The notes under the pieces are model-generated. The model made no database searches. It had not been told where the DNA came from and was given only the letters and a program-made list of their open reading frames with translations. Shown here in pieces: positions 7,545 through 20,137 of a stretch of 48,344 nt of DNA. Both the position numbers and the translations under genes were made by a program. The stretch is taken from positions 1 to 48,344 of the forward strand of contig CALWSW010000001.1 in NCBI GenBank assembly GCA_944384305.1, read 5' to 3'. The number at the start of each line of letters is the position of its first letter. Positions within the stretch are counted from its first letter, which is position 1. This DNA comes from an uncultured Christensenellaceae bacterium. GTDB taxonomy: Bacteria; Bacillota; Clostridia; Christensenellales; CALWSW01.

Positions 7545-7579
7545 GAACGAAAAATGCCGCCCGGAGGTTTTTGGGCGGC
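7545..7579 (-). terminator. Rho-independent terminator (minus strand) just upstream of the cas3 promoter region
   Basis: On the minus strand: GCCGCCC-aaaaacctcc-GGGCGGC (7-bp GC stem, 10-nt loop) followed by ATTTTTCGTT. Confidence 0.6.
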
Positions 7580-7617
7580 ACAAGGGCGGCGCAGGTGAGG
7601 CAGACGCCCCAGGGGTG

Positions 7618-7649
7618 ATTTCGATCCACGCCGCTTCCAGGGCCTGTTG
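7618..7649 (-). repeat. Orphan, half-degenerate type I-C CRISPR repeat (3' 13 nt intact)
   Basis: The minus strand reads CAACAGGCCCTGGAAGCGGCGTGGATCGAAAT. The last 13 nt (CGTGGATCGAAAT) are identical to repeat R2 of the mini-array; the 5' hairpin half is unrelated. Confidence 0.45.
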
Positions 7650-7877
7650 TGCAGACCGCTGGCCCGCCCGAGCTCTGGGAGCGGCGGCAGTGATGACCCG
7701 GGAGAGCCCGGTATGGTTCGGGTTTTGGCTTGTGCCCTTGGTTCGGACGGCGGCAGGGGAATGATCCCCTCCCGCGTTTTGGGCAGGTTTCGACCAGCGT
7801 TTGAGAGACCGCGGCAAACATGGACGGGCTCTTACCAAACGGCGCTTGAAGGCGTGCCCGGGCTTGTTCACCTCGGC

Positions 7878-7976
7878 ATTTCGATCCACGTCCTCGCGAG
7901 AAGGATGACATAGCGCTAAGCTGTGGGACTTCTTCGTATTCGACATTTCAATCCACATCCCCGCGAGGAGGATGAC
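7878..7976 (-). CRISPR. Type I-C mini-array: 2 repeats (32 nt) + 1 spacer (35 nt), transcribed like the cas genes
   Basis: R1 (7976..7945) is GTCATCCTCCTCGCGGGGATGTGGATTGAAAT and R2 (7909..7878) is GTCATCCTTCTCGCGAGGACGTGGATCGAAAT, 28/32 identical. The spacer (7944..7910) is GTCGAATACGAAGAAGTCCCACAGCTTAGCGCTAT. The 3' end GTGGATTGAAAT, a 7-bp hairpin and an 11-nt tail form the canonical I-C repeat architecture. An AT-rich leader-like stretch occupies 7977-8010. Confidence 0.75.
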
Positions 7977-8039
7977 TATAATTTGAAAAAATTCTCTGCT
8001 TTCTTCATATGGTTGGGGCTTGCGCCGGGCTGAAGGGGA

Positions 8040-8060
8040 AGGGGTGATTCGAACATCGGC
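8040..8060 (-). repeat. Repeat-derived fragment duplicating the 7611-7630 junction (AGGGGTGATT(T)CGA)
   Basis: Plus strand 8040-8049 AGGGGTGATT is identical to 7611-7620. The following cgaacatcgg resembles tcgatccacg with a 1-nt deletion. Confidence 0.25.
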
Positions 8061-8104
8061 GCGTTCGCTCTCTTTTGCAGGGGCATTGGCTGAAACAGCC
8101 GGGT

Positions 8105-8356
8105 TCAAATATTGTGAAGCCGCGTGAGCAAAGCGATGAGCTGGAACTTGTCGGCCATGAGCTGGCGGAAGGCCACGGTTTTTTGCTTGCCCTGTGCGCG
8201 CAGGGCGGCCATTTTTTGCTCGATGTTTTCCTGTTCAGAAAGCAGGGAATCGTACAGGTCTTCGAGTTTTCCCAGCTTTTCCAGGGCGGCGGATAGCTGC
8301 TGCCCTTCCTTTAACTGGTAGCCGTTTGGCGTAAACTGCGTCAGGCGTTCTTCCAT
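8105..8356 (-). CDS. Hypothetical small protein (83 aa, helical/coiled-coil-like)
   Basis: The internal ATG 8356 has AAAGGAG 6 nt upstream, and the longer ORF-track N-terminus has no RBS. Product MEERLTQFTPNGYQLKEGQQLSAALEKLGKLEDLYDSLLSEQENIEQKMAALRAQGK...; no family recognised. Confidence 0.55.
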   Translation of the reverse strand: MEERLTQFTPNGYQLKEGQQLSAALEKLGKLEDLYDSLLSEQENIEQKMAALRAQGKQKTVAFRQLMADKFQLIALLTRLHNI

Positions 8357-8440
8357 GAAGGCTCCTTTCTTGGCCGGGAAGCGGAGGTTTGGCAAGGCCG
8401 GTACAGTAGGCGAAGGGGGGGAAAGACTGGGCAAAAGAAC

Positions 8441-8492
8441 AAAGCGCAAAACCGCTGCCCGGGTAAATGCGTTCCCCTGGGCAGCGGTTTTT
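8441..8492 (-). terminator. Rho-independent terminator ending the mdh...frdA-like operon
   Basis: On the minus strand: CCGCTGCCCAGGgg...ccCGGGCAGCGG followed by TTTTGCGCTTTGTTCTTTTG, 12 nt after the stop at 8504. Confidence 0.65.
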
Positions 8493-8503
8493 CAATAAAA
8501 AGG

Positions 8504-10108
8504 TCAGAGTTCGTTGGTTTTTCGGGTGTAGTCGGGCAGCAGCAGGGGGGAGACCGCGCCGGTCTCGACGCCCGCTTCCTTGAGGGACTGCTCAAAAGCC
8601 TCTACGTGCGCAAGGCTCAACCGGCCCGGCGCCGTGTTTTTTGCGGCGCGCGCGGCGCTCTTGCCCGCCGTGCGGCCAAAGACGATGATGTCGAGCAGGG
8701 AATTGCCCATGAGGCGGTTGCGGCCGTGGATGCCGCCCACCGCTTCGCCCGCCACAAACAGGTTTTCCACTCCGCTCATGCCGTCCGGGGCGATCTCGAT
8801 GCCGCCGTTTTGGTAGTGCAGCGTGGGGTAGACCAGAATGGGGGTGGTGCGCAGGTCGATGCCGTATTTGCCGAACATCCGCAGCATGCCGGGGATGCGG
8901 CGCTCGATGGTGCCCTCGCCGCCTATTTGATCGATCATGGGGGTGTCCAGCCACACGCCGTAGCCGTTGCCGGTCTCAATGCCCAGCTGCCGCTCGGTGC
9001 ACTCGCGGATGATGGCCGCGGCCGAGACGTCGCGGGTCTCCAGGGGATGCATGAAGGCTTCGCCCTCGCGGTTGACGAGCATGGCGCCCAAAGAACGCAC
9101 CTTTTCGGTGACCAGCGCGCCGAAGATCTGCGGCGGGTAGGCCGCGCCCGTGGGATGGTACTGCAGGGTGTCGGCGTACAATAGCTTTGCCCCGGCGCGG
9201 TAGGCCAGCACCAGGCCGTCGGCCGTGGCGCCGTAGTGGTTGGAGGTCGGGAACCCCTGGTAGTGCAGCCGCCCGGCGCCGCCGGTAGCAAGCACCACGG
9301 TCTTGGCGCGGGCAACGAGCAGCTCCTTGGTCTCCATGTTCAAAAGCACCGCGCCGGCCGCGCGGCCGGACTCGTCTTTTAAGATCTCGATGGCGGCGGT
9401 AAAATCCCACACGGGGATCTCGCGGTTGAAGACCTCGTCGCGCAGCACGCGCATGATCTCGGCGCCGGAGTAGTCCTTGGCGGCGTGCATCCGCTTTCTC
9501 GAAGTGCCGCCGCCGTGGGTGGTGATCATGGTGCCGTCGGGGGCTTTGTCGAACATCACGCCCAGGTCGTTGAGCCATTTGACGGCCGCAGGGCCTTCGG
9601 TCACCAGCTTTTTGAGAAGCTCCGGCCGGTTGGCATAATGCCCGCCGCCCAGGGCGTCCAGGTAGTGGATGGCGGGGGAATCGCCGGGCTTGTCGGCCGC
9701 CTGGATGCCGCCTTCGGCCATCATGGTGTGGGCGTCGCCAATGCGCAGCTTGGTGGCAATGAGCACCTTTGCGCCGGCGGCGTGCGCCTCGATGGCGGCC
9801 GAAGCGCCCGCCCCGCCCCCGCCGATGACCAGCACGTCCACGTCGCAGTCGGGGTGCGCAAGATCCAGCGCTTTTCCGGCCAGACGGCTGTGCCCCAGCA
9901 GCAGCGCGCACAGCTCTTTGGGCACTTTGTCGCCCGCGTTGGGGCCGGCGGCGAGCACGGCAAAGGCGTCCTCGCGGTAGTCGGGGTGGAACTTTTTGAG
10001 CAGGGCGTCCTTTTCTTCGGCGGTCATGCGGCGGGGTTCCTGCGCCATGCGGGCCGCGCGGGTCGCCTCGACTTTTTGGATGGATGTAAGCATCTGTTCT
10101 GTCAACAT
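8504..10108 (-). CDS. FAD flavoprotein of the succinate dehydrogenase/fumarate reductase (SdhA/FrdA) family, soluble type
   Basis: Start re-set to ATG 10108 (AAAGGGGG SD; the upstream gene stops at 10122). Motifs: DVLVIGGGGAGASAAIEA (FAD), DAHTMMAEGG, LQYHPTG, TEKVRS (catalytic Arg), ETRD, PTLHYQNGG, AGEAVGGIHGRNRLMGNSL. Confidence 0.85.
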   Translation of the reverse strand: MLTEQMLTSIQKVEATRAARMAQEPRRMTAEEKDALLKKFHPDYREDAFAVLAAGPNAGDKVPKELCALLLGHSRLAGKALDLAHPDCDVDVLVIGGGGAGASAAIEAHAAGAKVLIATKLRIGDAHTMMAEGGIQAADKPGDSPAIHYLDALGGGHYANRPELLKKLVTEGPAAVKWLNDLGVMFDKAPDGTMITTHGGGTSRKRMHAAKDYSGAEIMRVLRDEVFNREIPVWDFTAAIEILKDESGRAAGAVLLNMETKELLVARAKTVVLATGGAGRLHYQGFPTSNHYGATADGLVLAYRAGAKLLYADTLQYHPTGAAYPPQIFGALVTEKVRSLGAMLVNREGEAFMHPLETRDVSAAAIIRECTERQLGIETGNGYGVWLDTPMIDQIGGEGTIERRIPGMLRMFGKYGIDLRTTPILVYPTLHYQNGGIEIAPDGMSGVENLFVAGEAVGGIHGRNRLMGNSLLDIIVFGRTAGKSAARAAKNTAPGRLSLAHVEAFEQSLKEAGVETGAVSPLLLPDYTRKTNEL

Positions 10109-10121
10109 CGCCGGGCCCCCT

Positions 10122-10796
10122 TTACTTTTCGATCTCGCGGTGGTTGTAAAGCTCCTGAAGCTCTTCCAGGGGCTTCTGCATGACCGATTCGAGCAGCGCT
10201 TCGCAATCGCCGCGCGCAATCTCTTCCACGCGCTCGGTCAGGTGCCTGGACTCGGGCGCGATGTACTTGCCGTACAGGCGCCGGGCCAGCAGCGCCACCT
10301 GCGGGTGGGTGATCTTGGCCGGGCAGCGCGAGGAGCAGATGCCGCACATCACACAGTCAAAGGAGAGTTCGGCGCAGCCCTCAAAGTCCCCCCGCTGGGC
10401 GGCGGCGATGTACTGCATGACGTTGAGGTCCTGCGGGCAGGCCTTGGTGCAGGCATTGCAGCCGATGCAGGCGTAAATTTCGGGGTAGAGCTGCATCATG
10501 ATCTGCTCTGTGGGCGAGACCTTTTCGATGTCGTACACCTGCTTGACCAAGGGGAAGTACGGCAGCGTGGCGATGTACATTTCGTCCTTTACCTGCTGCT
10601 GGCAGGCCAGGCAGGTGTAGAGCTCGCGGTCGTTCTTGATGCGGTAGATGGTGGCGCAGGCCCCGCAGAAGCCGTTGCGGCAGCCGCAGCCCCGCACCAG
10701 CTGGTAGCCGGCGTATTCCATGGCCGTCATGATGGTGAGGCTGCCCGGCACGCGGTAGCGCTTGCCGAACAGGTAGATGTTGACCATATCTTCCAT
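10122..10796 (-). CDS. Fe-S subunit, SdhB/FrdB-like (2Fe-2S plus 4Fe-4S dicluster domains)
   Basis: 224 aa. Cys patterns: CGCRNGFCGACA (plant-type 2Fe-2S), CIGCNACTKACP and CVMCGICSSRCP (two 4Fe-4S motifs). GGAGG lies 5 nt upstream of the ATG. Confidence 0.85.
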   Translation of the reverse strand: MEDMVNIYLFGKRYRVPGSLTIMTAMEYAGYQLVRGCGCRNGFCGACATIYRIKNDRELYTCLACQQQVKDEMYIATLPYFPLVKQVYDIEKVSPTEQIMMQLYPEIYACIGCNACTKACPQDLNVMQYIAAAQRGDFEGCAELSFDCVMCGICSSRCPAKITHPQVALLARRLYGKYIAPESRHLTERVEEIARGDCEALLESVMQKPLEELQELYNHREIEK

Positions 10797-10876
10797 AAAA
10801 ACCTCCGGTTCCGGAAAGAAGGCGTCGTTTTCTTTTTGATCGGGTCAGGAAACGGTGCTGTTGAACGGGGAAAACC

Positions 10877-11704
10877 TCAGTATTCGTCCGGCAGCTCGTC
10901 GAGCTGGTCCATGCGGAACACCGGGCCGTCCTTGCACACGTACTTGGAGCCGATGTTGCACCGGCCGCACTTGCCCACGCCGCACTTCATTCTGAGCTCC
11001 ATGGTGGTGTACACCTGGGTGCGGGCAAAGCCCAGTTCGGCAAGCGCCCCCAGCACGAATTTTATCATGATGGGCGGGCCGCACACAAGGGCTGTGGCGG
11101 TGGGGGCAAAGCCCAGTTCACGGACGTAGTTGGGCACGAAGCCGACGTTGCCCTCCCAACCTTCCTGCGCGCGGTCGATGGTGAGGTGCACGTCGACTCC
11201 CGGCGCGTGTGCCCAGGAGGCGCGGATCTCTTCAAGGTCGACCAGATCGTCGGCCGAGCGCGCGCCGTAAACGATATCTACCTTGCCGTAGCGCTCGCGC
11301 TTGTCCAGCACGTAGTTGATGACGGAGCGCAAGGGGGCCAGGCCAATGCCGCCCGCGATGAACAGAAGGTCCTGCCCAAGGAGCGCGCCTTCCACCGGGA
11401 AGCCGTTGCCGTACGGCCCGCGGATGGTCAGCTGTGCGCCCGCTTCCAGGCGGTGCAGCCAGTCGGTGAGGCAGCCGCACTTTTTGATGGAGAATTCCAA
11501 ATATTCGGTGTTGGTGGGGGAGGAGGTGATGGAAAACATCGCCTCGCCCACGCCGGGGATGCTGAGCATGGCGCACTGGCCGGGCATATGGGCAAAGTTT
11601 TTTCCGCCCGTGAGGGCGTTGACCCGGAAGGTCTTGACGTCGGGGGTGTCGCGCCGCACATCGGTCACGACGCCGATCATGGGGATCAAGGGATCATTGG
11701 GCAC
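10877..11704 (-). CDS. FAD/NAD(P)H-binding oxidoreductase with C-terminal 2Fe-2S (FlxA / AsrB / HydG / PyrK-like)
   Basis: Ferredoxin-reductase-type fold motifs (FAHMPGQCAML, LFIAGGIGLAPL) and a C-terminal CGVGKCGRCN cluster. The ORF-track GTG 11713 overlaps the GGAGG; GTG 11704 is 8 nt after it, so the start is uncertain by about 3-11 codons. Confidence 0.8.
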   Translation of the reverse strand: MPNDPLIPMIGVVTDVRRDTPDVKTFRVNALTGGKNFAHMPGQCAMLSIPGVGEAMFSITSSPTNTEYLEFSIKKCGCLTDWLHRLEAGAQLTIRGPYGNGFPVEGALLGQDLLFIAGGIGLAPLRSVINYVLDKRERYGKVDIVYGARSADDLVDLEEIRASWAHAPGVDVHLTIDRAQEGWEGNVGFVPNYVRELGFAPTATALVCGPPIMIKFVLGALAELGFARTQVYTTMELRMKCGVGKCGRCNIGSKYVCKDGPVFRMDQLDELPDEY

Positions 11705-12740
11705 GGGGTTCACCTCCCAGGGCCTTGGCGACCCGGATCATGTGCAGATTGGCGGGGCATTTTTTGACGCAGCGGCCGCACCCCACGCAGGAAAACAGGC
11801 CGCCGTTGTTCTTGGGGTAATACACCAGCTTGTGCAAAAAGCGCTGGCGGAACCGCTCCTTCTGGGTCTTGCGGGGGGTGCCGTGGGCCATCATGGTGAA
11901 GTCCTTGTACATGCAGGAATCCCAGCACCGAAAGCGCAGAACGCCCTTGCCCGTGTCGTAGTCGCGGATGTCGTAGCACTGGCAGGTGGGGCAGCTGAAG
12001 GTGCAGGAGCCGCAGCCCAGGCAGTGGGCCGAAAGCTCTTCCCAGGCGGGGTGGTCAAACAGCGCCAGCTCGTCCGACGCTTCGCCAAAGCGCGAAAGGT
12101 CGAGCTGGCCGTAGGGCAGGCGGCCGAGTACGGCGCGGGCGGCGGCCTGCTGGGCTGCTACTTCTTTTTCGTCCGCGGGGGCAAAGCCCGCAAAGCAGGA
12201 AACGATGGTTTCGCCCTTTTCGGTGCAGGGGCGCAGGTACAGGGCGGACTCGGTCAGCCAGGCGACGGCGTCGCAGGGGCCCTGGGGGCTTGTGGGGTCG
12301 ATGCCGAAGGCGGTGCAGAAGCAGCTTTCGGCCGGGCGGGCGCAGGCGAGCGCCACGACGGTGGCGTGTTCCCTGCGGCTTTGGTAAAAGCTGTCCACAG
12401 GCTCGGCCAAAAACACGCGGTCGAGCACCTCGATGGCCTGCAGATCGCAGGCTTTGACCCCAAAGAGCACAAAGGGCTCCTTCTGGCGGGCCGCTTCCTG
12501 CAGGGCGATCTCTGCCCCCGTCAGGCGGAACTTCACCAGCTCCTCGCTCTGGGGGAAGAACAGGTCCTTGGGGCTTTTGTCGCACAGCAGCAGCGAAAGG
12601 TCGGCTTCGCTGCCCTCCTCGCCGTAGGGCAAAAAGGCCGAAGCGCCGTTTTTGCGGGTGGGCAGGTACACCCGGCCCAGCGCGCCGAGCGCCTCGTACA
12701 ATTCGCCCAGGCGGGCGCGGTCCATTGCGTAAAGGCTCAT
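11694..12740 (-). CDS. Fe-S protein, AsrA/HydB (sulfhydrogenase beta)-like; FlxB-like
   Basis: Start re-set to ATG 12740 (ATGA overlap with the upstream stop). Motifs CLGCGSCTFSCPTCQC and CVGCGRCVKKCP. Confidence 0.75.
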   Translation of the reverse strand: MSLYAMDRARLGELYEALGALGRVYLPTRKNGASAFLPYGEEGSEADLSLLLCDKSPKDLFFPQSEELVKFRLTGAEIALQEAARQKEPFVLFGVKACDLQAIEVLDRVFLAEPVDSFYQSRREHATVVALACARPAESCFCTAFGIDPTSPQGPCDAVAWLTESALYLRPCTEKGETIVSCFAGFAPADEKEVAAQQAAARAVLGRLPYGQLDLSRFGEASDELALFDHPAWEELSAHCLGCGSCTFSCPTCQCYDIRDYDTGKGVLRFRCWDSCMYKDFTMMAHGTPRKTQKERFRQRFLHKLVYYPKNNGGLFSCVGCGRCVKKCPANLHMIRVAKALGGEPRAQ

Positions 12741-13714
12741 GCGCGCCCCCTTTCCAGCACGGCCGAAGGCTCGGGGTCCTCGGGCGTGTAGTTGACGAGC
12801 GGCGGGCGGGCGGCCGGGTCGGCCCCGGCCTGGTACTCGCCGTAAAGCTCGTTGACGTCTTTGATGAACTTGCGGTTCAGCAGGTGCAGCGGGATGGACT
12901 GCGGGCACACCCGCGAGCACTCGCCGCAGTCGGTGCAGCGCCCGGCCACGTGCCAGGCGCGGATGATGTGGAACAGGCTCTCTTCAAACTCCGTGCTGTT
13001 GGCCTTGGCGGCCACGCCGGACTGGGGGTTGTCGAACACGCACTGCACACAGGAGCAGGCCGGGCAGACGTTGCGGCAGGCGTTGCAGCGGATGCACTTG
13101 GAAAGCTCGCCCCGCCAGAAGGCGTAGCGCTCTTGTGCGGTCTGTTCTTCGAGCGCGGCGACTTTTTGGAAGCGGTCGCGTTTGGGGAGTTCGGGCAGGG
13201 CGTATTCGAGCGTTTCGTCCACGCCGGCGTATTCCCGGCCGCGGCAGCACAGGCAGCGCTCCAAAAGCAGCTCTTCGCGTGCAAGGCGCACCTCGCCATA
13301 AAGCGTTTCAAACACCACCTGGCCGTCTTCTTCCCGGAAGGAAAGCGCGCCTTCCACGCCTTTGGCGCGGGCTTTGCGCATATCCAGCTTGCCTTCGCAG
13401 GGGATGCCCAGAGCGTAAATGTTTTCCCGCTTTACGCGGTGCTCCTTGACCAGCTGGGCCAGGCTGTAGGAATCGCAGGGCTTTAAAAGCACCAGCACCT
13501 TGCCTTCCTTTTGACTTTCGGCAATGCAGTACTTGCTGAGATTGGCGGCGGTAAAGCCGTCGTACACCAGCTCGTTCAGCCGGCCTTCGGAAAAAACGCC
13601 GGGCGTGGGGTCGTAAAAGAATTCCCCCGGCGCCCAGCCAAGGACGCGGCCGGCCGCGCCGCTTTGCAGCAGCTCCTTGGCGCGGGCGCAAATGGCGTTG
13701 GTCAGTTCCCGCAT
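12737..13714 (-). CDS. Fe-S protein with two 4Fe-4S motifs; FlxC-like
   Basis: Start re-set to ATG 13714 (GAGGGA SD; 13-nt overlap with mvhD). Motifs CIRCNACRNVCPACSC and CTDCGECSRVCP. Confidence 0.7.
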   Translation of the reverse strand: MRELTNAICARAKELLQSGAAGRVLGWAPGEFFYDPTPGVFSEGRLNELVYDGFTAANLSKYCIAESQKEGKVLVLLKPCDSYSLAQLVKEHRVKRENIYALGIPCEGKLDMRKARAKGVEGALSFREEDGQVVFETLYGEVRLAREELLLERCLCCRGREYAGVDETLEYALPELPKRDRFQKVAALEEQTAQERYAFWRGELSKCIRCNACRNVCPACSCVQCVFDNPQSGVAAKANSTEFEESLFHIIRAWHVAGRCTDCGECSRVCPQSIPLHLLNRKFIKDVNELYGEYQAGADPAARPPLVNYTPEDPEPSAVLERGRA

Positions 13715-14160
13715 CGCAGATCCCTCAGCTTTCTGTTTTCGCCCAGCGCGCGGATGGTGCGGGCGAAGTCGTTCATGGTGGCGGAAAACTTTGCGCCTTC
13801 CGCGGCAGAGACCCACTCTACCCGTGTGCGCTCCCGTTCAATGCCCAGATAGTCGAGCATGGAGAACAGCAGCGTCATGCGGCGGCGGGTGTAGTAGTTG
13901 CCGGTGGTGTAGTGGCAGTCGCCGGGGTGGCAGCCGCACAGAATGACGCCGTCGGCGCCCCGCTCAAAGGCCTTCAGCACAAACAGCGGGTTGACCCGGC
14001 AGGAGCAGGGCACGCGGATGATCTTGACGTCGGCGGGGTAGGTCAGGCGGCTGGAGCCGGCAAGGTCTGCGCCGGCGTAGCTGCACCAGTTGCAGCAGAA
14101 GGCCACGATGAGCGGCCGGTATTCCCCGGTTTGCGCCGGGGCGCTCGTGTTCAGCGGCAT
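13702..14160 (-). CDS. mvhD: MvhD/FlxD-like protein (methyl-viologen-reducing hydrogenase delta subunit family)
   Basis: 152 aa; IVAFCCNWCSYAGADLAG...IIRVPCSCRVNP...GADGVILCGCHPGDCHY is the FlpD/MvhD signature. The start overlaps the hdrA stop by 10 nt. Confidence 0.9.
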   Translation of the reverse strand: MPLNTSAPAQTGEYRPLIVAFCCNWCSYAGADLAGSSRLTYPADVKIIRVPCSCRVNPLFVLKAFERGADGVILCGCHPGDCHYTTGNYYTRRRMTLLFSMLDYLGIERERTRVEWVSAAEGAKFSATMNDFARTIRALGENRKLRDLRCGN

Positions 14161-16136
14161 ATCGCGTCCACCTCCGCCATGATCTGTTGATTGGTAAAGC
14201 CTTTAAGGTCCATCGCGCCCGAGGGGCAGGCCACCGTGCAGGCGCCGCAGCCCTGGCAGACCGCCTCGTTCACCACGGCCACGCGGGCGGTGCGGCGCAC
14301 GCCCTTGTCGTTCAGCTCGCGCTCTTCGTAGGTGATGGCGCCGTAGGGGCAGACCTTTTCGCACGAGGAGCAGCCGTTGCAAAGCAGGGGGTCGGAAGAT
14401 GCCACGCAGGCGTTGTTCACCAGCTTCTGCTTGCACAAGAGGCCGATGACCTTGGCGGCGCAGGCGCTCGCCTGGGCCACGGTCTCGGGAATGTCCTTGG
14501 GTCCCTGGCACACCCCCGAAAGGAACACGCCGGCCGTGGGGCTTTCCACTGGGCGCAGCTTGGGGTGGGCCTCGGTCATGAAGCCGTTGGTGTCGATGCT
14601 GGCGGTGAGCATGGAGGCCACCGAGCGGGCCGTGGGGTCGGGCTCGATGGCGGCGGCGAGCACCACCATGTCGGCCTCCAGGTGCAGCTGGCGGTCGTTT
14701 AACAGGTCGGAGCCCTGCACCTTCAGGCGGCCGCCTTCGCGCGTGACCTTGCCCACCATGCCCTTGACGTACTGCACCCCGTATTCCTCCACCGCGCGGC
14801 GGTAGAATTCGTCGAAGTTCTTGCCGGGGGTGCGCACGTCGATGTAAAAGACCGTAACGCTGACGTCGGGGTACTTGTCGCGCACCAGGATGGCGTGTTT
14901 GGCGGTGTACATGCAGCAGATCTTGGAGCAATAGGGCTTGCCGCAGCCCGAGGTGTCGCGCGAGCCGACGCACTGGATGAACACGATGTGCTTGGGGTGG
15001 CGGCCGTCCGACGGGCAGACCAGATGCCCCCCGGTGGGGCCGGCGGCGTTCATCAGCCGCTCGAACTCCAGCGAGGTCAAAACGTCCTTGCTCTTGCCGT
15101 AGCCAAACTCGCCGAACCCCGAGGGGTCGATCATCTGAAAGCCCGTGGCCATGACGATGGCGCCGTAATTGCGGGTGACGAGCTCGTCTTCCTGGGCAAA
15201 ATCGATGGCCTTGGCCGAGCAGGTGCGCTCGCACAGGCCGCACTTGCCGGTTTTGAAGTGCAGGCAGTGTTCGCGGTCGATGACGGCGATCTTGGGCACG
15301 GCCTGCGCGTAGGGAATGTAGATGGCGCCGCGGGTGTCCATTCCCATATTAAATTCGTTTTTCGTCTTGCGCGAGGGGCACTTTTCGGTGCACTCGCCGC
15401 AGCCCGTGCACAAATCGGCGCGCACACTGCGGGCCTTTTTGCGGATGGTGACGGTGAAGTTGCCCACAAAGCCCTTCACGCTTTCCACCTCGCTGTAGGT
15501 AAACAGCTCGATGTTCTCGTTCGCGCCTGCGTCCACCATCTTGGGGGTGAGGATGCAGGCCGAGCAGTCCAGGGTGGGGAAGGTCTTGTCGAGCTGGGCC
15601 ATGCGCCCGCCGATGGTGGGCTGCTTTTCCACAATGTCCACCGCAAAGCCCGCCTCGGCGATGTCCAGGGCGGTCTGGATGCCGGCGATGCCGCCGCCGA
15701 TGACCAGCGCGCGCTTGGTCACCTCGGTGGTGCCGGAGGTCAGCGGCGCGTCTTTTAATACCTTGGCGATGGCCGCGCGGGCGAGCACGATGGCCTTTTC
15801 GGTCGCTTCTTCCATATTCTTATGGATCCACGAGCAGTGCTCGCGGATGTTGGCGATCTCTACCATGTAGGGGTTCAGCCCGGCGGCGGCAGCGGTCTTT
15901 TTAAAGGTGGCCTCGTGCATCCGCGGCGAGCAGGAGCACACCACGATGCCTGTGAGGCCGTGCTCTTTGACGGCGGACTTGATGAGGTTCTGGCCGCTGT
16001 CGGAGCACATGTACTGGTAGTCGGCGGCGAAGGCCACGCCGGGTTCCTGGCGCACGGCCTCTACCACGCGCCCCACGTCCACCGTGCCGGCGATGTTGCT
16101 GCCGCACCAGCAGACGAAAACGCCTATTTTCTGCAT
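14151..16136 (-). CDS. hdrA: Heterodisulfide reductase subunit A-like flavoprotein (HdrA)
   Basis: Start re-set to ATG 16136 (GAGG SD); the ORF-track N-terminal extension overlaps hdrC and is Arg/Pro-rich junk. Product MQKIGVFVCWCGSNIAGTVDV..., with FAD motif ALVIGGGIAGIQTALDIAEAG and several 4Fe-4S motifs (CTGCGECTEKCP, CGLCERTCS, CNGCSSCEKVCP, CQGCGACTVACP). Confidence 0.9.
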   Translation of the reverse strand: MQKIGVFVCWCGSNIAGTVDVGRVVEAVRQEPGVAFAADYQYMCSDSGQNLIKSAVKEHGLTGIVVCSCSPRMHEATFKKTAAAAGLNPYMVEIANIREHCSWIHKNMEEATEKAIVLARAAIAKVLKDAPLTSGTTEVTKRALVIGGGIAGIQTALDIAEAGFAVDIVEKQPTIGGRMAQLDKTFPTLDCSACILTPKMVDAGANENIELFTYSEVESVKGFVGNFTVTIRKKARSVRADLCTGCGECTEKCPSRKTKNEFNMGMDTRGAIYIPYAQAVPKIAVIDREHCLHFKTGKCGLCERTCSAKAIDFAQEDELVTRNYGAIVMATGFQMIDPSGFGEFGYGKSKDVLTSLEFERLMNAAGPTGGHLVCPSDGRHPKHIVFIQCVGSRDTSGCGKPYCSKICCMYTAKHAILVRDKYPDVSVTVFYIDVRTPGKNFDEFYRRAVEEYGVQYVKGMVGKVTREGGRLKVQGSDLLNDRQLHLEADMVVLAAAIEPDPTARSVASMLTASIDTNGFMTEAHPKLRPVESPTAGVFLSGVCQGPKDIPETVAQASACAAKVIGLLCKQKLVNNACVASSDPLLCNGCSSCEKVCPYGAITYEERELNDKGVRRTARVAVVNEAVCQGCGACTVACPSGAMDLKGFTNQQIMAEVDAICR

Positions 16137-16294
16137 TGAGATACCTCGTTTGAGCCCGCAAAAGCGGGGGAAACGCCGCTTTGCGGGGAAAATTGCCCCT
16201 GCCGGGCAGCGCGCAAAGGGCCTGCCGCAGGCAAAAGGGCGAGGAAAATGTTCAAGGAAAAACCAAAGGAAGAGCCCCAAAGAAGGCAGCCCGC

Positions 16295-16678
16295 CTATTT
16301 GCTGAGCTTGCGGAAGGCGCTCACCACGGCCTGCTGGGGGGTGCCGGCATCGATGAGCTCGGGGATGAGCTGTGCCGGCAGGCGGGTGTGCTCGCGCTCG
16401 CGCAGCACCATGGCCCGCAGGGCCTCGATGAGCGAGGCGGGCTGTACGCCGCGGGGGCAGCGCTCCACACAGGCAAAGCAGGACATGCAGGCGTAAAGCG
16501 ACTTGGACTGCAGAAGCGGCGCGATCTCGCCCCGTTCGACCATGGCGACGAACTGGTGGGGCCGGTAGTCCATGGCGTCGTAGGCCGGGCAAGAGCCCGA
16601 GCACTTGCCGCAGAGCATGCACTTGCGGGTGTTGGTGCCGCTGATGCGCAGCACGGTCTCGCGGGTGGTCTCAGGCAT
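16295..16678 (-). CDS. hdrC: Heterodisulfide reductase subunit C-like (HdrC, 2x4Fe-4S)
   Basis: 127 aa with CMLCGKCSGSCP and CMSCFACVERCP. The start overlaps the hdrB stop by 8 nt. Confidence 0.85.
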   Translation of the reverse strand: MPETTRETVLRISGTNTRKCMLCGKCSGSCPAYDAMDYRPHQFVAMVERGEIAPLLQSKSLYACMSCFACVERCPRGVQPASLIEALRAMVLREREHTRLPAQLIPELIDAGTPQQAVVSAFRKLSK

Positions 16679-17462
16679 GGCCGTTCCCTCCCTTCAGCGC
16701 CGCTTCCAGCAGCTCGGTCACGTAGTAGACCGGCAGGCTGCCGCCGCTGTGGCGCGAAAGATTGTACTGGCACAGCGGGCAGGCCGTGACCAGCGCTTCG
16801 GCCCCGGCTTCGCGCGCGCTCGTCAAAATGGCGCGGGTGCGGCGCGAAGCCGCCGCGGGGTCGGTGAGCGAAAGGTAGCCCGCGCAGCACTCGTTTTTCT
16901 GGTCGTAGTCCACGGGTGCAGCGCCCAGGGCGCGCAGAAGGTCCTCCAGCATGGTGGGGGATTCGGGGTCGTCAAACTGCATCACGTCCGCCGGGCGCAG
17001 CAGCAAACAGCCGTAATATGCCCCGATCTTTTGCCCCGTCAAGGGGTGTTTGACCTGCTGTTTAATGGTTTCAAACCCCACGTCGTTTTTCAGTACCTCC
17101 AGGTAGTGGAGCACTTTGGTCTCCCCGGCGTAGGGCGTGGAAAGGCCGAGGTAGTTGGCGGCCTTTTGCCGCAGGTCGGGGTTTTTGGCCATGTCGGCGT
17201 TTACCCGCTTGATGACGTGGTGGCAGGCCGAACAGAGCGTGACGAGTGGCACGCCGGCCTCGCGCGCCGCCAATAAGGCGCGCACGGCCGAAAGCCGGGC
17301 GGCGACTTCGTCCTGCGCCATGGGGTACACCGCGCCGCAGCACTGCCACTCGGGCACCTCGGTGAGCGTGACGCCCAAACATTCGGCTGCGGCGCGGGCC
17401 GAAGCGTCCAGCGCTTTGGCCTTGGTCTTGAGCGTGCAGCCGGGGTAGTAGTAATAGTTCAT
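16671..17462 (-). CDS. hdrB: Heterodisulfide reductase subunit B-like (HdrB, two CCG domains)
   Basis: 263 aa starting MNYYYYPGC, with two CCG-type motifs (EWQCCGAVYP and NECCAGYL) plus CSACHH and CPLCQ. Confidence 0.9.
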   Translation of the reverse strand: MNYYYYPGCTLKTKAKALDASARAAAECLGVTLTEVPEWQCCGAVYPMAQDEVAARLSAVRALLAAREAGVPLVTLCSACHHVIKRVNADMAKNPDLRQKAANYLGLSTPYAGETKVLHYLEVLKNDVGFETIKQQVKHPLTGQKIGAYYGCLLLRPADVMQFDDPESPTMLEDLLRALGAAPVDYDQKNECCAGYLSLTDPAAASRRTRAILTSAREAGAEALVTACPLCQYNLSRHSGGSLPVYYVTELLEAALKGGNGHA

Positions 17463-17515
17463 TGCAATCCTCGCGATGGGTCTTTCGCTGCTTATTTGGC
17501 CGCGCCCCGGAATGT

Positions 17516-18883
<1,368 letters not shown>

Positions 18884-18898
18884 TTTCTTCGCCCCCTT

Positions 18899-19882
18899 TC
18901 ACACGCTCAGCAGCTTTTTTGCCGAATCCATGGAAAGATCCAGCCCCGAAATGACCTCGCGCAAGCTCTCAGCGCTGCGCTCGAGCAGCGCCTGTTCGCT
19001 TTCAAGAAGTGTGGGGGTCAATTTGGTCTTGATGCCCCGGGAGGTGACGATGCAGGGCAGGCTGAGGCAGACGTCGTGGATGCCGTATTCGCCGTGCAGC
19101 ATGGACGAGACCGACAGCAGGGAGTTGCGGCCGTCGAAAATGGTCTTGATGATGTGGCAGGCCCCGATGGAGACGGCGTAGAAGGTGGCGCCCTTGCGGG
19201 AAATGACCTTGCCGCCCGAGGTGCGGGTGTACTGCTCGATCTCCTCGCGGTTGAACTCGGGCAGCGCGCCGATGTCTTCGTTGTGGTCGATGGTGGCCAA
19301 ATAGTCGTCCAGCCCGATGCCGCCGATGGTGGCGAGCGACCACGGCACGAAGGAGGTGTCGCCGTGTTCGCCAAACACGCTGGCGTATACGTTCTTCTGG
19401 CTGATGTCGAGGTACTCGGCGATGCGCGAGCGCAGGCGGGCGGTGTCCAAAATGGTGCCCGAGCCGATGATCTGCCGTTCGGGCAGGCCGGAGATTTTGG
19501 TGAACACGTAGGTCAAAATGTCCACCGGGTTGGCGATGATGAGGTAGATGGCGTTGGGGGCGTAGTGGACCAATTCGGGCGTGATGAGCTTGATGATGTC
19601 CACATTGGTCTGCGCGAGGTCCAGCCGGCTTTGGCCGGGCTTGCGCGCTACGCCGCAGGCGATGACCACCACGTCGGACCCCACGGCGTCGGAGTAGTTG
19701 CCGGCGTAGATCGAGACCGGCGCGCAAAAGGGCGTGCCCTGGCGGATGTCCATGGCCTCGCCGAGCGCTTTGTCCTCCTTGAGGTCGATGAGGGCGATTT
19801 CAGAAGCGATGCCCGTGACCACGAGGGTATAGGCGATGGTCGCGCCGACGCTGCCGGCGCCCACAATGGTGATCTTGCTCAT
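18899..19882 (-). CDS. mdh: LDH-family malate dehydrogenase (Arg at the Q102/R102 specificity position)
   Basis: 327 aa with ITIVGAGSVGATIAY (NAD) and catalytic GEHGDTS. The substrate loop GVARKPGQSR aligns to LDH GANQKPGETR, giving Arg in place of Gln102, the MDH determinant. Confidence 0.85.
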   Translation of the reverse strand: MSKITIVGAGSVGATIAYTLVVTGIASEIALIDLKEDKALGEAMDIRQGTPFCAPVSIYAGNYSDAVGSDVVVIACGVARKPGQSRLDLAQTNVDIIKLITPELVHYAPNAIYLIIANPVDILTYVFTKISGLPERQIIGSGTILDTARLRSRIAEYLDISQKNVYASVFGEHGDTSFVPWSLATIGGIGLDDYLATIDHNEDIGALPEFNREEIEQYTRTSGGKVISRKGATFYAVSIGACHIIKTIFDGRNSLLSVSSMLHGEYGIHDVCLSLPCIVTSRGIKTKLTPTLLESEQALLERSAESLREVISGLDLSMDSAKKLLSV

Positions 19883-19984: not shown

Positions 19985-20014
19985 AATATAAAACAAACAA
20001 ATAAGAAATGTCAA
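19985..20014 (-). promoter_or_regulatory. Sigma-A-type promoter for the mdh operon (TTGACA-18-TATATT)
   Basis: The minus strand reads cacTTGACAtttcttatttgtttgtttTATATTtaac, about 100 nt upstream of the mdh ATG in an AT-rich gap. Confidence 0.5.
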
Positions 20015-20101
20015 GTGCGTTTGTAAATAAATTAACGAGTATGCTGAGGTAAACTTGCGCTGTGTGTCGAAACTCTGCCCAAACGGTACAAAAAATCATA
20101 T

Positions 20102-20137
20102 AAAAACTCCTGCGCAGGCAAAACGCAGGAGTTTTTT
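20102..20137. terminator. Bidirectional rho-independent terminator (serves the SorC-family regulator gene)
   Basis: AAAAA-CTCCTGCG-caggcaaaa-CGCAGGAG-TTTTTT. Confidence 0.7.

What the first reader, a model, noticed from the sequence alone, without database searches (positions are those of the whole stretch)
8504..19882. Eleven-gene operon linking mdh and fumC to an HdrABC-MvhD-Flx-like module and a soluble FrdAB-like pair: candidate electron-bifurcating fumarate reductase
Seen: mdh, fumC, hdrB, hdrC, hdrA, mvhD, two AsrA/HydB-like Fe-S proteins, an AsrB/PyrK-like FAD/NAD(P)H + 2Fe-2S protein, an SdhB/FrdB-like Fe-S protein and an SdhA/FrdA-like flavoprotein lie on one strand. They are bounded by a TTGACA-18-TATATT promoter (20014..19985) and a strong terminator (8441-8492). 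Most junctions overlap (12737-12740 ATGA, 13702-13714, 14151-14160, 16671-16678, 11694-11704). None of the products looks like a membrane anchor (no FrdC/D or SdhC/D-type hydrophobic ORF). Established: HdrABC-MvhD is the flavin-based electron-bifurcating core of Mvh-Hdr in methanogens, Flx-Hdr in Desulfovibrio and MetFV-HdrABC-MvhD in Moorella. CCG-domain (HdrB-like) proteins are the partners of SdhAB in type-E succinate:quinone reductases and are fused to the Fe-S subunit in methanogen thiol:fumarate reductase. Inference: oxaloacetate is converted to malate, fumarate and then succinate, with the very exergonic fumarate reduction (NADH entering through the FlxA-like subunit) coupled through HdrA to reduction of ferredoxin or to a thiol/disulfide carrier. 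To my knowledge a bacterial Hdr/Flx-coupled cytoplasmic fumarate reductase is not an established enzyme.
Basis: partly seen in the sequence, partly recalled or inferred. Interest (0 to 1): 0.75.

Follow-up and report, generated by a model that had tools for sequence, protein, structure and literature searches.

The report
Hdr-Flx-linked soluble fumarate reductase operon
This gut Clostridia operon joins the enzymes that make fumarate to a membrane-free fumarate reductase wired to a heterodisulfide-reductase/NADH-dehydrogenase module; the gene set is real and conserved in hundreds of species, but the idea has been published and the enzyme has never been purified.

Summary
Eleven minus-strand genes (mdh, fumC, hdrB, hdrC, hdrA, mvhD/flxD, flxC-like, flxB-like, flxA-like, frdB-like, frdA-like) lie between an 11/12 sigma-70 promoter match and a -29.9 kcal/mol terminator. 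None has a membrane segment.

The flavoprotein keeps every fumarate/succinate catalytic residue. It lacks the Succ_DH_flav_C domain and carries a conserved ~90-residue N-terminal extension. In 51 of 51 related genomes with enough contig, all nine hdr-flx-frd genes are present and colinear; fumC is present in 48 of 51.

More distant relatives of the FrdBA pair sit beside fumarase, malic enzyme, mdh or TCA-cycle genes. They are paired with other electron-input modules: Mvh hydrogenase plus HdrABC in an Asgard archaeon, hdrCB in Bathyarchaeota-type archaea, and a NuoF-like protein in sulfur-oxidising Gammaproteobacteria.

The best reading is a cytoplasmic NADH-driven, probably ferredoxin-reducing (bifurcating) fumarate reductase.

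This reading is not new. The same operon type was proposed for Pseudoclostridium thermosuccinogenes (2019 preprint; BMC Microbiol 2020). A related Hdr-Flx to "TfrAB" model was proposed for tubeworm symbionts (2019, 2024). I found no biochemical proof. Verdict: a new member of a proposed but uncharacterised kind, of moderate interest.

The parts
20021..20038 (-). Candidate Rex (NADH/NAD+ sensing repressor) operator TCGTTAATTTATTTACAA, 6 nt upstream of the -35 box
   Evidence: 12/14 match to TTGTTAAnnnnTTAACAA (consensus from my own knowledge). Matches of >=12/14 occur upstream of mdh in 10/46 related loci versus 0.2% of shuffles. A rex-type gene lies directly upstream of mdh in L003/L004. This is an inference, not a demonstrated site.
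19985..20014 (-). Sigma-70-type promoter TTGACA-18-TATATT
   Evidence: Best site of the scan, 11/12; sequence read. The terminator of the upstream gene lies at 20136..20102.
18899..19882 (-). LDH-family malate dehydrogenase (327 aa)
   Evidence: Ldh_1_N and Ldh_1_C. NCBIfam names it L-LDH, but Arg80 at the LDH-Q102 specificity position is invariant in 46/46 orthologues.
17516..18883 (-). Class II fumarate hydratase FumC (455 aa)
   Evidence: TIGR00979 734 bits versus cutoff 665; Lyase_1 and FumaraseC_C.
16671..17462 (-). HdrB-like CCG protein (263 aa), two complete CXnCCXnCXXC motifs
   Evidence: CCG x2. Cys pattern 9/41-42/77/80 and 152/192-193/228/231. 122 bits to solved HdrB 8rvv_B. Equal NCBIfam scores to HdrB and to the SdhE anchor of methylmenaquinol:fumarate reductase.
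16295..16678 (-). HdrC-like 2x[4Fe-4S] protein (127 aa)
   Evidence: Fer4_8; CoB_CoM_SS_C best hit; two CxxCxxCxxxCP motifs.
14151..16136 (-). HdrA (661 aa), FAD plus multiple Fe-S clusters; the putative bifurcating subunit
   Evidence: HdrA2 model 802 bits. 680 bits, residues 3-659 colinear with 5odc_A.
13702..14160 (-). MvhD/FlxD (152 aa), 2Fe-2S electron connector
   Evidence: FlpD E=6e-55.
12737..13714 (-). FlxC-like Fe-S protein (325 aa)
   Evidence: Fer4_8; two CxxCxxCxxxCP motifs. The C-terminal half resembles FdhB of Fdh-Hdr complexes 9t1s_M/7bkb_E.
11694..12740 (-). FlxB-like Fe-S protein (348 aa), HydB/ShyB/AsrA type
   Evidence: Fer4_22; ShyB/HydB/AsrA; sulfhydrogenase beta 9nez_B E=1e-43.
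10877..11713 (-). FlxA-like FAD/NAD(P)H/2Fe-2S protein (278 aa; alternative GTG start at 11704)
   Evidence: FAD_binding_6, NAD_binding_1 and DHODB_Fe-S_bind; HydG/AsrB/PyrK models.
10122..10796 (-). FrdB-like Fe-S subunit (224 aa): CX4CX2C...C 2Fe-2S motif plus two full 4-Cys motifs (no 3Fe-4S signature)
   Evidence: Weak Fer2_3, Fer2_4 and dhsB hits; matches N-terminal TfrB positions 19-148. Cys map. No close solved structure. Naturally fused to the flavoprotein in P0122.
8504..10108 (-). FrdA-like flavoprotein (534 aa): FAD_binding_2 core, conserved ~90-aa N-terminal extension, no Succ_DH_flav_C domain
   Evidence: Codon 127 (9728-9730) is CAC (His) here, but AAC (Asn) in all relatives.
8441..8492 (-). 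Intrinsic terminator (13-bp G+C-rich stem, then UUUUGCGCUUUGUUCUUUU)
   Evidence: Sequence read; RNAfold -29.9 kcal/mol.

Best explanation
The operon encodes the last three steps of the reductive C4 branch: oxaloacetate to malate to fumarate to succinate. The final step is carried out by a soluble multi-subunit complex with no quinone or membrane anchor.

Inferred electron path:
1. NAD(P)H is oxidised at FlxA (FAD, 2Fe-2S).
2. Electrons pass through the Fe-S proteins FlxB and FlxC, then MvhD/FlxD, to the FAD of HdrA.
3. From HdrA one electron branch goes uphill to ferredoxin through HdrA's ferredoxin domains.
4. The other branch goes downhill through HdrC and the two non-cubane clusters of HdrB into FrdB (2Fe-2S plus two 4Fe-4S). 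From there it reaches the non-covalently bound FAD of FrdA, where fumarate is reduced.

Net reaction: 2 NADH + Fd(ox) + fumarate -> 2 NAD+ + Fd(red) + succinate. Reduced ferredoxin can then be used by Rnf or a hydrogenase, which would give energy conservation from fumarate reduction without quinones.

FrdA + FrdB + HdrC + HdrB together look like a split version of methanogen thiol:fumarate reductase TfrAB.

What is shown: gene content, cofactor motifs, catalytic residues, absence of an anchor, and co-conservation. What is inferred: complex formation, NADH as the donor, ferredoxin as the second acceptor, and direct HdrB-to-FrdB electron transfer.
For: Gene content and motifs:
- Domain and motif content of all subunits.
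- HdrA is full-length and colinear with the structurally characterised bifurcating HdrA (680 bits).
- HdrB has both CCG motifs.
- The flavoprotein keeps all dicarboxylate-binding and catalytic residues in 119-120 of 120 homologues. Its fold matches FrdA/SdhA/Fcc3.
- The residue at the covalent-FAD His position is Asn in 119 of 120 homologues and in all conspecific copies. By established knowledge (E. coli FrdA His44 variants), non-covalent FAD allows fumarate reduction but not efficient succinate oxidation.
- FrdB has two 4-Cys motifs rather than the 3Fe-4S/quinone-site arrangement, and there is no anchor.

Co-conservation:
- The nine-gene hdrBCA-mvhD-flxCBA-frdBA core is present and colinear in 51 of 51 related species genomes with a full flank. 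fumC is in 48 of 51 and mdh in 44 of 51. These include the cultured Christensenella tenuis, and the protein of C. minuta.
- A natural FrdB-FrdA fusion exists.

Deep relatives with different electron donors:
- Asgard L087: hdrA-mvhDGA-hycI-hdrC-hdrB-frdB-frdA.
- Asgard L089: hdrC-hdrB-hdrA-(999 aa protein)-mvhD-frhB-like-frdB-frdA.
- Bathyarchaeota-type L088: hdrC-hdrB-frdB-frdA.
- L086: malic enzyme-fumarase-frdB-frdA.

Other:
- TfrB is a natural fusion of an FrdB-like, an HdrC-like and a CCG part. Window FrdB, HdrC and HdrB match TfrB model positions 19-148, 131-221 and 409-485 respectively.
- In P. thermosuccinogenes the equivalent operon is co-regulated (about 4-fold up under CO2 limitation), and H2 abolishes succinate formation (PMC7282089).
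- Thermodynamics, from established potentials (NADH -320 mV, fumarate +33 mV, Fd about -450 mV): the coupled reaction is exergonic by roughly 40 kJ/mol.
Against: - No biochemical data exist for any member. I found none in the literature.
- The related MetFV-HdrABC-MvhD of Moorella did not show ferredoxin reduction in vitro, and Flx-Hdr of Desulfovibrio has not been purified as a bifurcating enzyme (my own knowledge).
- HdrB keeps an intact disulfide-reducing site, which a pure electron wire would not obviously need.
- The gammaproteobacterial relatives pair FrdBA with a NuoF-like protein and have no adjacent hdr genes within 10 kb. FrdBA therefore does not strictly require Hdr.
- The 158-nt hdrC-hdrA gap in this genome leaves a single transcript unproven.
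- The NAD(H) versus NADP(H) specificity of FlxA is unknown.
- Christensenella is not known as a succinate producer (my own knowledge), so the physiological role may be anabolic.
Confidence: 0.6

Rival explanations
1. Thiol-shuttle version. Flx-HdrABC reduces a disulfide carrier (a small thiol or a DsrC-like protein) by bifurcation. The resulting thiol is re-oxidised at a CCG site to drive FrdAB, as in methanogen TfrAB. The two activities would be coupled chemically, not by a continuous Fe-S wire.
For: HdrB retains both complete CCG motifs, which form the disulfide-reducing site. The closest curated model of the flavoprotein is thiol:fumarate reductase TfrA. A DsrC-mediated route was offered as an alternative in the Endoriftia model (PMC11636981).
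Against: FrdB has no CCG domain of its own, so the only thiol site is HdrB. No DsrC-like or other carrier gene is conserved inside the cluster; all 11 genes are colinear with no extra conserved gene. In archaeal relatives hdrB lies directly upstream of frdB, mimicking the TfrB fusion.
Confidence: 0.15
2. Non-bifurcating soluble NADH:fumarate reductase. The Hdr and Flx proteins act only as an Fe-S/flavin wire from NADH to FrdA, and no ferredoxin is reduced.
For: NADH to fumarate is strongly exergonic on its own. Gammaproteobacterial relatives pair FrdBA with only a NuoF-like NADH-binding protein. Moorella MetFV-HdrABC-MvhD showed no ferredoxin reduction in vitro (my own knowledge).
Against: Seven extra subunits are strictly conserved in 51 of 51 genomes, including a full-length HdrA with both ferredoxin-type domains. 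That is hard to explain for a simple wire. In P. thermosuccinogenes, H2 suppresses succinate formation, as expected if ferredoxin re-oxidation is required (PMC7282089).
Confidence: 0.15
3. The complex runs in reverse. Succinate is oxidised to fumarate, and reduced ferredoxin helps push electrons onto NAD+ (confurcation), as a syntrophic propionate or succinate oxidiser would need.
For: Hdr-type complexes are reversible in principle. mdh and fumC are reversible enzymes.
Against: The family has Asn instead of the FAD-linking His (119 of 120). Non-covalent FAD disfavours succinate oxidation (established for E. coli FrdA/SdhA). The hosts are gut fermenters (record titles). Under standard potentials the reverse reaction is endergonic.
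Confidence: 0.05
4. The flavoprotein acts on another substrate (L-aspartate as in NadB, or another enoate such as urocanate or acrylate-type acids), and its position next to mdh and fumC is incidental.
For: It passes no curated equivalog cutoff (best is TfrA at 337.6 versus 718 bits). NadB models score nearly as high. The FAD_binding_2 superfamily has many substrates.
Against: The full set of fumarate/succinate catalytic residues is conserved. An Fe-S partner subunit is present, which NadB and urocanate reductase lack. Linkage to fumarase, mdh or malic enzyme recurs in three distant lineages.
Confidence: 0.05

Closest known systems
'Succinate operon' of Pseudoclostridium thermosuccinogenes (CDQ83_RS03365-03315). 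Koendjbiharie & van Kranenburg, preprint 10.20944/preprints201912.0288.v1; PMC7282089.
   Same: Same reported content and order: fumarate hydratase, then seven Flx-Hdr genes, then two fumarate reductase genes. Same published interpretation: NADH-driven fumarate reduction coupled to ferredoxin reduction.
   Different: The window operon also starts with mdh. It lacks the trailing hypothetical 'transporter' gene; the small ORF after its terminator is soluble. The P. thermosuccinogenes enzyme is itself uncharacterised biochemically.
FlxABCD-HdrABC NADH dehydrogenase/heterodisulfide reductase of Desulfovibrio vulgaris (Ramos et al. 2015)
   Same: All seven subunit types are present: FlxA (FAD/NAD/2Fe-2S), FlxB/C Fe-S proteins, FlxD (MvhD) and HdrA/B/C.
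   Different: The gene order is hdrBCA-flxDCBA rather than flxABCD-hdrABC. The proposed high-potential acceptor is fumarate through FrdBA, instead of the DsrC disulfide. No dsrC or adh linkage was seen in the cluster or in the parts of the window I annotated.
Thiol:fumarate reductase TfrAB of Methanothermobacter
   Same: It is soluble with no anchor. The flavoprotein is the closest curated relative. CCG-type clusters are linked to an SdhB-like Fe-S chain and a fumarate-reducing FAD.
   Different: TfrB is one polypeptide (2Fe-2S + 4Fe-4S + CCG). Here these parts are split into FrdB, HdrC and HdrB. The window flavoprotein lacks the last ~125 residues of TfrA and has an N-terminal extension instead. 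No CoM/CoB is expected in Clostridia. HdrA/MvhD/Flx are added.
'TfrAB' of the rTCA gene clusters of tubeworm symbionts and Chromatiaceae (PMC6315080; PMC11636981)
   Same: Same flavoprotein family: 47% identity, same N-terminal extension and Asn. It has also been proposed to receive electrons from Hdr-Flx.
   Different: In the two loci I read, frdB-frdA is followed by a NuoF-like gene, and hdr/flx are not within 10 kb. The context there is autotrophic rTCA, not fermentation.
Membrane-bound quinol:fumarate reductases / succinate:quinone reductases (types A-E), including type E with CCG-domain SdhE
   Same: Homologous flavoprotein core and catalytic residues. HdrB scores as well on the SdhE anchor model as on HdrB.
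   Different: There is no hydrophobic anchor, no quinone-site 3Fe-4S signature, no Succ_DH_flav_C domain, and (in the family) no covalent-FAD histidine.
MvhADG-HdrABC and Fdh-HdrABC of methanogens (5odc, 7bkb, 8rvu)
   Same: HdrA, HdrB, HdrC and MvhD are homologous and colinear. The C-terminal half of FlxC resembles the FdhB part of those complexes.
   Different: The donor module is Flx (NAD(P)H), not a hydrogenase or formate dehydrogenase. The acceptor is proposed to be fumarate, not CoM-S-S-CoB.

Membership tests
FlxABCD-HdrABC type complex | HdrA with an FAD domain plus N-terminal, inserted and C-terminal Fe-S domains | tested here: met
   HdrA2 model 802 bits. 680 bits, residues 3-659 versus 5odc_A 5-649. 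Three CxxCxxCxxxCP motifs plus further Cys clusters.
FlxABCD-HdrABC type complex | HdrB with two CCG motifs (CXnCCXnCXXC), and HdrC with two 4Fe-4S motifs | tested here: met
FlxABCD-HdrABC type complex | FlxD (MvhD/FlpD), FlxA (FAD, NAD(P), 2Fe-2S), and FlxB and FlxC Fe-S proteins encoded together with hdrABC | tested here: met
   The gene order differs from D. vulgaris.
FlxABCD-HdrABC type complex | NADH-dependent reduction of ferredoxin plus a disulfide (DsrC) | not testable with these tools
No DsrC-like gene lies in the cluster.
SdhA/FrdA fumarate reductase/succinate dehydrogenase flavoproteins | FAD_binding_2 domain with the catalytic His/Arg pairs and Thr-Glu of the dicarboxylate site | tested here: met
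   E=2e-66. Motifs containing H318, T334/E335, R359, H431 and R465 are present in 119-120 of 120 homologues. Fold match to FrdA/SdhA.
SdhA/FrdA fumarate reductase/succinate dehydrogenase flavoproteins | C-terminal Succ_DH_flav_C domain | tested here: not met
   No Pfam hit. Curated models align only to their first ~420 positions.
SdhA/FrdA fumarate reductase/succinate dehydrogenase flavoproteins | Histidine for covalent 8-alpha-FAD attachment | tested here: inconclusive
   The window has His127, but 119 of 120 homologues and 8 of 8 full-length cluster mates that are >=98.9% identical have Asn.
SdhA/FrdA fumarate reductase/succinate dehydrogenase flavoproteins | Score above a curated equivalog cutoff (NCBIfam) | tested here: not met
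   Best is TfrA at 337.6 versus 718 bits. All Sdh/Frd/NadB models are also below their cutoffs.
Thiol:fumarate reductase TfrAB | TfrB: a single subunit fusing 2Fe-2S/4Fe-4S domains with two CCG domains | tested here: not met
   FrdB (224 aa) has no CCG domain. The CCG domains are on the separate HdrB protein.
Thiol:fumarate reductase TfrAB | Uses CoM-SH + CoB-SH as the electron donor | not testable with these tools
   The hosts are Clostridia, which are not known to make these coenzymes (my own knowledge).
Membrane-bound quinol:fumarate reductase / succinate:quinone reductase | Hydrophobic anchor subunit(s) (FrdC/D, SdhC/D) or a membrane-associated SdhE/F | tested here: not met
   No product has a 19-residue hydropathy mean above 1.79, and the two highest are Rossmann strands. 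There are no further genes between the promoter and the terminator.
Membrane-bound quinol:fumarate reductase / succinate:quinone reductase | SdhB-type 2Fe-2S, 4Fe-4S and 3Fe-4S triad | tested here: not met
   A 2Fe-2S motif is present, but both ferredoxin-type motifs have four Cys (CxxCxxCxxxCP at 110 and 148). dhsB scores 35 versus a cutoff of 88 bits.
P. thermosuccinogenes-type Flx-Hdr-linked fumarate reductase operon | Fumarase gene + seven flx/hdr genes + two frd genes in one co-directional cluster | tested here: met
   Window gene order compared with the published locus-tag description (PMC7282089). No direct sequence comparison was done.

The most novel reading that the evidence does not exclude
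FrdBA may be a portable fumarate-reducing end-module that plugs directly into HdrBC. In this reading HdrB's non-cubane clusters hand electrons to FrdB with no thiol/disulfide substrate at all. The same Hdr-Frd core would be driven by interchangeable donors across domains: Flx/NADH in several hundred gut Clostridia species, Mvh hydrogenase/H2 or an FrhB-like module in Asgard archaea, and hdrCB-linked forms in Bathyarchaeota-type archaea. That would amount to a widespread, quinone-independent, ferredoxin-generating form of fumarate respiration. It would also be the first Hdr whose physiological acceptor is not a disulfide.
Probability: 0.4. Interest if true: 0.7.

Novelty: new member of a known kind. 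Interest (0 to 1): 0.45.

Why it matters
Many strict anaerobes of the gut (Christensenellaceae, Oscillospiraceae and related Clostridia) are thought to lack quinones and cytochromes. They are therefore assumed unable to conserve energy from fumarate reduction.

A soluble complex that uses the large NADH-to-fumarate potential drop to make reduced ferredoxin would change that. The ferredoxin could be used by Rnf or a hydrogenase, giving these bacteria a respiration-like energy gain and an electron sink. The operon occurs in at least about 600 species-level genomes, and its flavoprotein is 71-79% identical across the closest relatives examined. Its activity could affect succinate, H2 and redox balance in gut ecosystems.

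Mechanistically, it would add fumarate to the short list of high-potential acceptors of flavin-based bifurcation. It would also show an Hdr core working without a heterodisulfide. Cultured hosts exist (Christensenella minuta and C. tenuis, P. thermosuccinogenes), so the hypothesis can be tested directly.

Tried and rejected
- Literature searches for a demonstrated 'bifurcating fumarate reductase', for Flx-Hdr plus succinate, and for papers citing the 2019 preprint. They returned only the P. thermosuccinogenes paper itself and no biochemical study.
- Possible membrane anchor or succinate transporter. There is none in the cluster. The ORF after the terminator (8105-8449) is hydrophilic.
- hdrC-hdrA 158-nt spacer as a regulatory RNA, terminator or repeat. 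The fold is not significant (z=-1.65). There is no Rfam family in the cluster, no copy elsewhere in the window and no match in related loci. Its role is unresolved.
- Placing the flavoprotein by a formal tree. No named reference sequences could be imported, so I used curated-model scores on the window protein and on 10 cluster representatives instead.
- Both Flx Fe-S proteins as AsrA-like paralogues. Rejected: they share only the ferredoxin motifs.
- Direct comparison with P. thermosuccinogenes proteins. My last two homologue searches led to Gammaproteobacteria and Archaea instead.
- The AlphaFold model of the flavoprotein has only moderate confidence (pLDDT 73, active-site loops below 50). 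I used it only for the overall fold.

Full report
**1. What is in the sequence**

Eleven co-directional ORFs lie on the minus strand between 19882 and 8504. After choosing starts with ribosome-binding sites, the genes are:

| Gene | Coordinates |
|---|---|
| mdh | 18899-19882 |
| fumC | 17516-18883 |
| hdrB | 16671-17462 |
| hdrC | 16295-16678 |
| hdrA | 14151-16136 |
| mvhD/flxD | 13702-14160 |
| flxC-like | 12737-13714 |
| flxB-like | 11694-12740 |
| flxA-like | 10877-11713 |
| frdB-like | 10122-10796 |
| frdA-like | 8504-10108 |

- Pfam and NCBIfam confirm each assignment.
- The TTGACA-18-TATATT promoter is the best site in the scan (11/12). It sits just after the terminator of the upstream SorC-type regulator gene.
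- The downstream hairpin at 8441-8492 folds at -29.9 kcal/mol and is followed by a U-rich tract.
- Five junctions overlap by 4-20 nt. The others are gaps of 13-80 nt, except for a 158-nt hdrC-hdrA spacer.
- No product has a transmembrane-like segment.
- The flanks are unrelated: a type I-C CRISPR-Cas operon downstream and sugar-metabolism genes upstream.

**2. Corrections of detail**

- The 'mdh' passes NCBIfam's L-LDH cutoff. However, it has Arg at the position equivalent to LDH Gln102, in 46 of 46 orthologues. By the classic Q102R specificity switch (established knowledge), this predicts a malate dehydrogenase of the LDH-like class.
- Only FlxB is HydB/AsrA-like; it matches sulfhydrogenase beta 9nez_B. 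FlxC shares only ferredoxin motifs with FlxB, and its C-terminal half resembles FdhB of the methanogen Fdh-Hdr complexes.
- FrdB is only distantly SdhB-like. It has a CX4CX2C...C 2Fe-2S motif and two complete CxxCxxCxxxCP motifs, so no 3Fe-4S signature. It has no close solved structure.

**3. The flavoprotein**

- It has a FAD_binding_2 core (E=2e-66) but no Succ_DH_flav_C domain. Instead it has a ~90-residue N-terminal extension that is conserved and predicted with high confidence.
- Its best curated model is thiol:fumarate reductase TfrA at 337.6 bits, far below the 718-bit cutoff. Next come Sdh/Frd and NadB models.
- Its best solved relatives by sequence are mycobacterial Sdh1 and E. coli SdhA. 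By fold they are E. coli FrdA, Sdh1, Fcc3 and NadB.
- Residues equivalent to E. coli SdhA H242, T254/E255, R286, H354 and R399 are H318, T334/E335, R359, H431 and R465. Their motifs are present in 119-120 of 120 homologues.
- The position of the covalent-FAD histidine is Asn in 119 of 120 homologues. Established work on E. coli FrdA His44 variants shows that non-covalent FAD supports fumarate reduction but not efficient succinate oxidation. This favours the reductive direction.

**4. Conservation**

- The flavoprotein has thousands of relatives. The top 120 are all 74-79% identical.
By their record titles, the closest 80 are almost all gut or rumen Clostridia: Oscillospiraceae, Christensenellaceae (including the cultured Christensenella tenuis), Ruminococcaceae and Acutalibacteraceae.
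- tblastn with the eleven window proteins shows that wherever the contig is long enough, every hdr, flx and frd gene is present and colinear. The counts are 55/55 for hdrB, hdrC and hdrA, rising to 79/79 for frdB; fumC is 49/52.
- Of the 51 loci with the full 10-kb flank, 51 have all nine core genes, 48 have fumC and 44 have mdh.
- There are four exceptions: two clusters that start at hdrB and two in which mdh abuts hdrB.
- The same 11-gene layout is seen around the Christensenella minuta and 'Ca. Pararuminococcus gallinarum' proteins.

**5. Deeper relatives**

At 50% clustering, only a few full-length clusters share the N-terminal extension.

- The 47%-identity cluster is gammaproteobacterial (Ridgeia symbiont, Sedimenticola, Thiorhodococcus). 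There frdB-frdA is followed by a NuoF-like gene and sits among mdh, citrate synthase, aconitase, pntAB and 2-oxoglutarate:ferredoxin oxidoreductase genes.
- The 56%-identity cluster is archaeal (Bathyarchaeota, Asgard). Four loci were read:
  - L086: malic enzyme, class I fumarase, frdB, frdA.
  - L088: hdrC-hdrB-frdB-frdA beside a divergent hdrA-mvhD fusion.
  - L087 (Asgard): hdrA-mvhD-mvhG-mvhA-hycI-hdrC-hdrB-frdB-frdA.
  - L089 (Asgard): hdrC-hdrB-hdrA-(999-aa Fe-S/flavoprotein)-mvhD-frhB-like-frdB-frdA.
- One representative is a natural FrdB-FrdA fusion.

Three conclusions follow. The FrdBA pair is a module. It is repeatedly linked to fumarate-forming enzymes. It is repeatedly linked to HdrCB(A), with different electron-input modules.

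**6. Mechanism (inferred)**

FlxA, with FlxB, is the homologue of the NAD(P)H-oxidising gamma/beta pair of sulfhydrogenase. FlxC and MvhD are the homologues of the connectors that feed HdrA in methanogen complexes. HdrA is full-length and colinear with the structurally defined bifurcating HdrA (680 bits).

Window FrdB, HdrC and HdrB align to successive parts of the TfrB model: positions 19-148, 131-221 and 409-485. FrdA+FrdB+HdrC+HdrB therefore looks like a split TfrAB.

The most economical model is:
- NAD(P)H -> FlxA -> FlxB/C -> MvhD -> HdrA-FAD.
- From HdrA-FAD, a low-potential branch goes to ferredoxin.
- A high-potential branch goes HdrC -> HdrB -> FrdB -> FrdA-FAD -> fumarate.

With standard potentials (NADH -320 mV, fumarate/succinate +33 mV, ferredoxin about -450 mV; established values), the reaction 2 NADH + Fd(ox) + fumarate is exergonic by roughly 40 kJ/mol.

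It cannot be decided here whether HdrB passes electrons directly or through a bound thiol/disulfide. The intact CCG motifs keep the thiol-shuttle rival alive.

**7. Comparison with what is known**

The idea is already in the literature.

- Koendjbiharie and van Kranenburg described a 'succinate operon' in Pseudoclostridium thermosuccinogenes. It consists of fumarate hydratase, seven Flx-Hdr genes and two fumarate reductase genes. They proposed that it couples succinate formation to ferredoxin reduction. The operon is about 4-fold induced under CO2 limitation, and H2 suppresses succinate formation (PMC7282089, citing preprint 10.20944/preprints201912.0288.v1).
- Rubin-Blum et al. (PMC6315080) and Mitchell et al. 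(PMC11636981) proposed that Hdr-Flx feeds a 'TfrAB' in the rTCA cluster of tubeworm symbionts. One search shows that this 'TfrA' belongs to the same flavoprotein family as the window protein.
- I found no report of purification or of a bifurcation assay.

The window operon is therefore a new member of a proposed but biochemically unestablished kind.

It is not a member of the membrane QFR/SQR classes: it has no anchor, no 3Fe-4S signature and no C-terminal domain. It is not TfrAB proper, because the CCG part is on a separate protein and the score is below the cutoff. It does meet all sequence-level features of a Flx-Hdr complex.

**8. Verdict**

- Observation: confirmed.
- Interpretation: supported as a candidate. 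Bifurcation itself is untested and there is prior art.
- Interest: moderate (0.45). A specialist would not be surprised by the hypothesis.
- Three points add something. The operon is very widespread and tightly conserved in gut Clostridia, including cultured Christensenella. The family carries Asn at the FAD-linking position. Archaeal Mvh-Hdr-Frd and FrhB-like-Hdr-Frd variants exist. Together these make the hypothesis stronger and directly testable.

Noticed in passing
window 9728-9730 (codon 127 of the frdA-like gene, minus strand): The window has CAC (His) exactly at the position of the covalent-FAD histidine of SdhA/FrdA. In contrast, 119 of 120 homologues, 8 of 8 full-length cluster mates (98.9-99.8% identical) and 5 of 5 conspecific contigs have AAC (Asn). 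Those five contigs differ from the window gene by only 2-12 nt, and this A-to-C change is always one of the differences. It is either a strain-specific N127H change at the flavinylation site or a sequencing error.
   Followed up: yes
window 20021-20038 (minus strand); upstream regions of mdh in L030, L032, L037, L061, L063, L066, L067, L069, L077: Rex-box-like palindromes (>=12/14 match to TTGTTAAnnnnTTAACAA; perfect in L063) lie upstream of mdh in 10 of 46 loci, versus 0.2% of shuffles. A rex-type gene (Put_DNA-bind_N + CoA_binding) directly precedes mdh in L003/L004. This suggests NADH/NAD+-responsive control of the operon in part of the family.
   Followed up: partly
window 16137-16294: The hdrC-hdrA spacer is 158 nt here, compared with 12-38 nt in the Christensenella-type and Pararuminococcus-type loci. 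It is G+C-rich, but its fold is not significant (z=-1.65). It has no copy elsewhere in the window, no match in the related loci and no Rfam match. Its origin and any effect on transcription are unknown.
   Followed up: partly
L087 2617-11656 and L089 1344-11656 (Asgard archaeon GCA_052584985.1): One Asgard genome carries two FrdBA-Hdr clusters with different donor modules. One has a [NiFe] Mvh hydrogenase (hdrA-mvhDGA-hycI-hdrCB-frdBA). The other has an FrhB/FdhB-like subunit plus a 999-aa Fe-S/pyridine-nucleotide-disulfide-oxidoreductase protein. The hdrA of L087 was not in the called-gene list, but tblastn shows it as one intact 654-residue match.
   Followed up: partly
L085 9354-12877 and L090 9331-12925 (Gammaproteobacteria, including the Ridgeia symbiont): In sulfur-oxidising Gammaproteobacteria the FrdBA pair is followed by a NuoF-like (Complex1_51K, NADH_4Fe-4S) gene instead of hdr/flx. 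This suggests a simpler NADH-linked soluble fumarate reductase within rTCA gene clusters.
   Followed up: no
P0122 (727 aa, metagenomic representative): A natural fusion of an FrdB-like domain (40% identical to window FrdB over all 224 residues) to the N-terminus of the FrdA-like flavoprotein.
   Followed up: yes
window 30-7450 (minus strand): A type I-C CRISPR-Cas operon lies immediately downstream of the fumarate reductase operon: cas3 (HD + DEAD + Cas3 C-terminal domains) at 5273-7450 and Csd1/Cas8c at 2613-4376. Four further unannotated minus-strand ORFs run down to position 30. No CRISPR array was looked for. The same cas3 neighbour is seen in conspecific contigs (L091-L093).
   Followed up: partly
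window 7451-8440: About 1 kb between cas3 and the operon terminator has no recognisable gene. It holds only a hydrophilic, coiled-coil-like ORF with no Pfam hit (8105-8449; called as 83 aa in conspecific contigs), which is conserved in position in conspecific assemblies.
   Followed up: partly
window 39028-42279 (plus strand): A large 1083-aa protein with four lamin-tail domains, a chitobiase/Fn3-associated domain and a CotH kinase domain. A tRNA gene lies at 32872-32944 (minus strand).
   Followed up: no
L052 (record titled 'Planctomycetota bacterium' MAG): A contig assigned to a Planctomycetota MAG carries a flavoprotein 72% identical to the Clostridia type, with the same flx-frd synteny. 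This is probably a binning error rather than a real occurrence.
   Followed up: no
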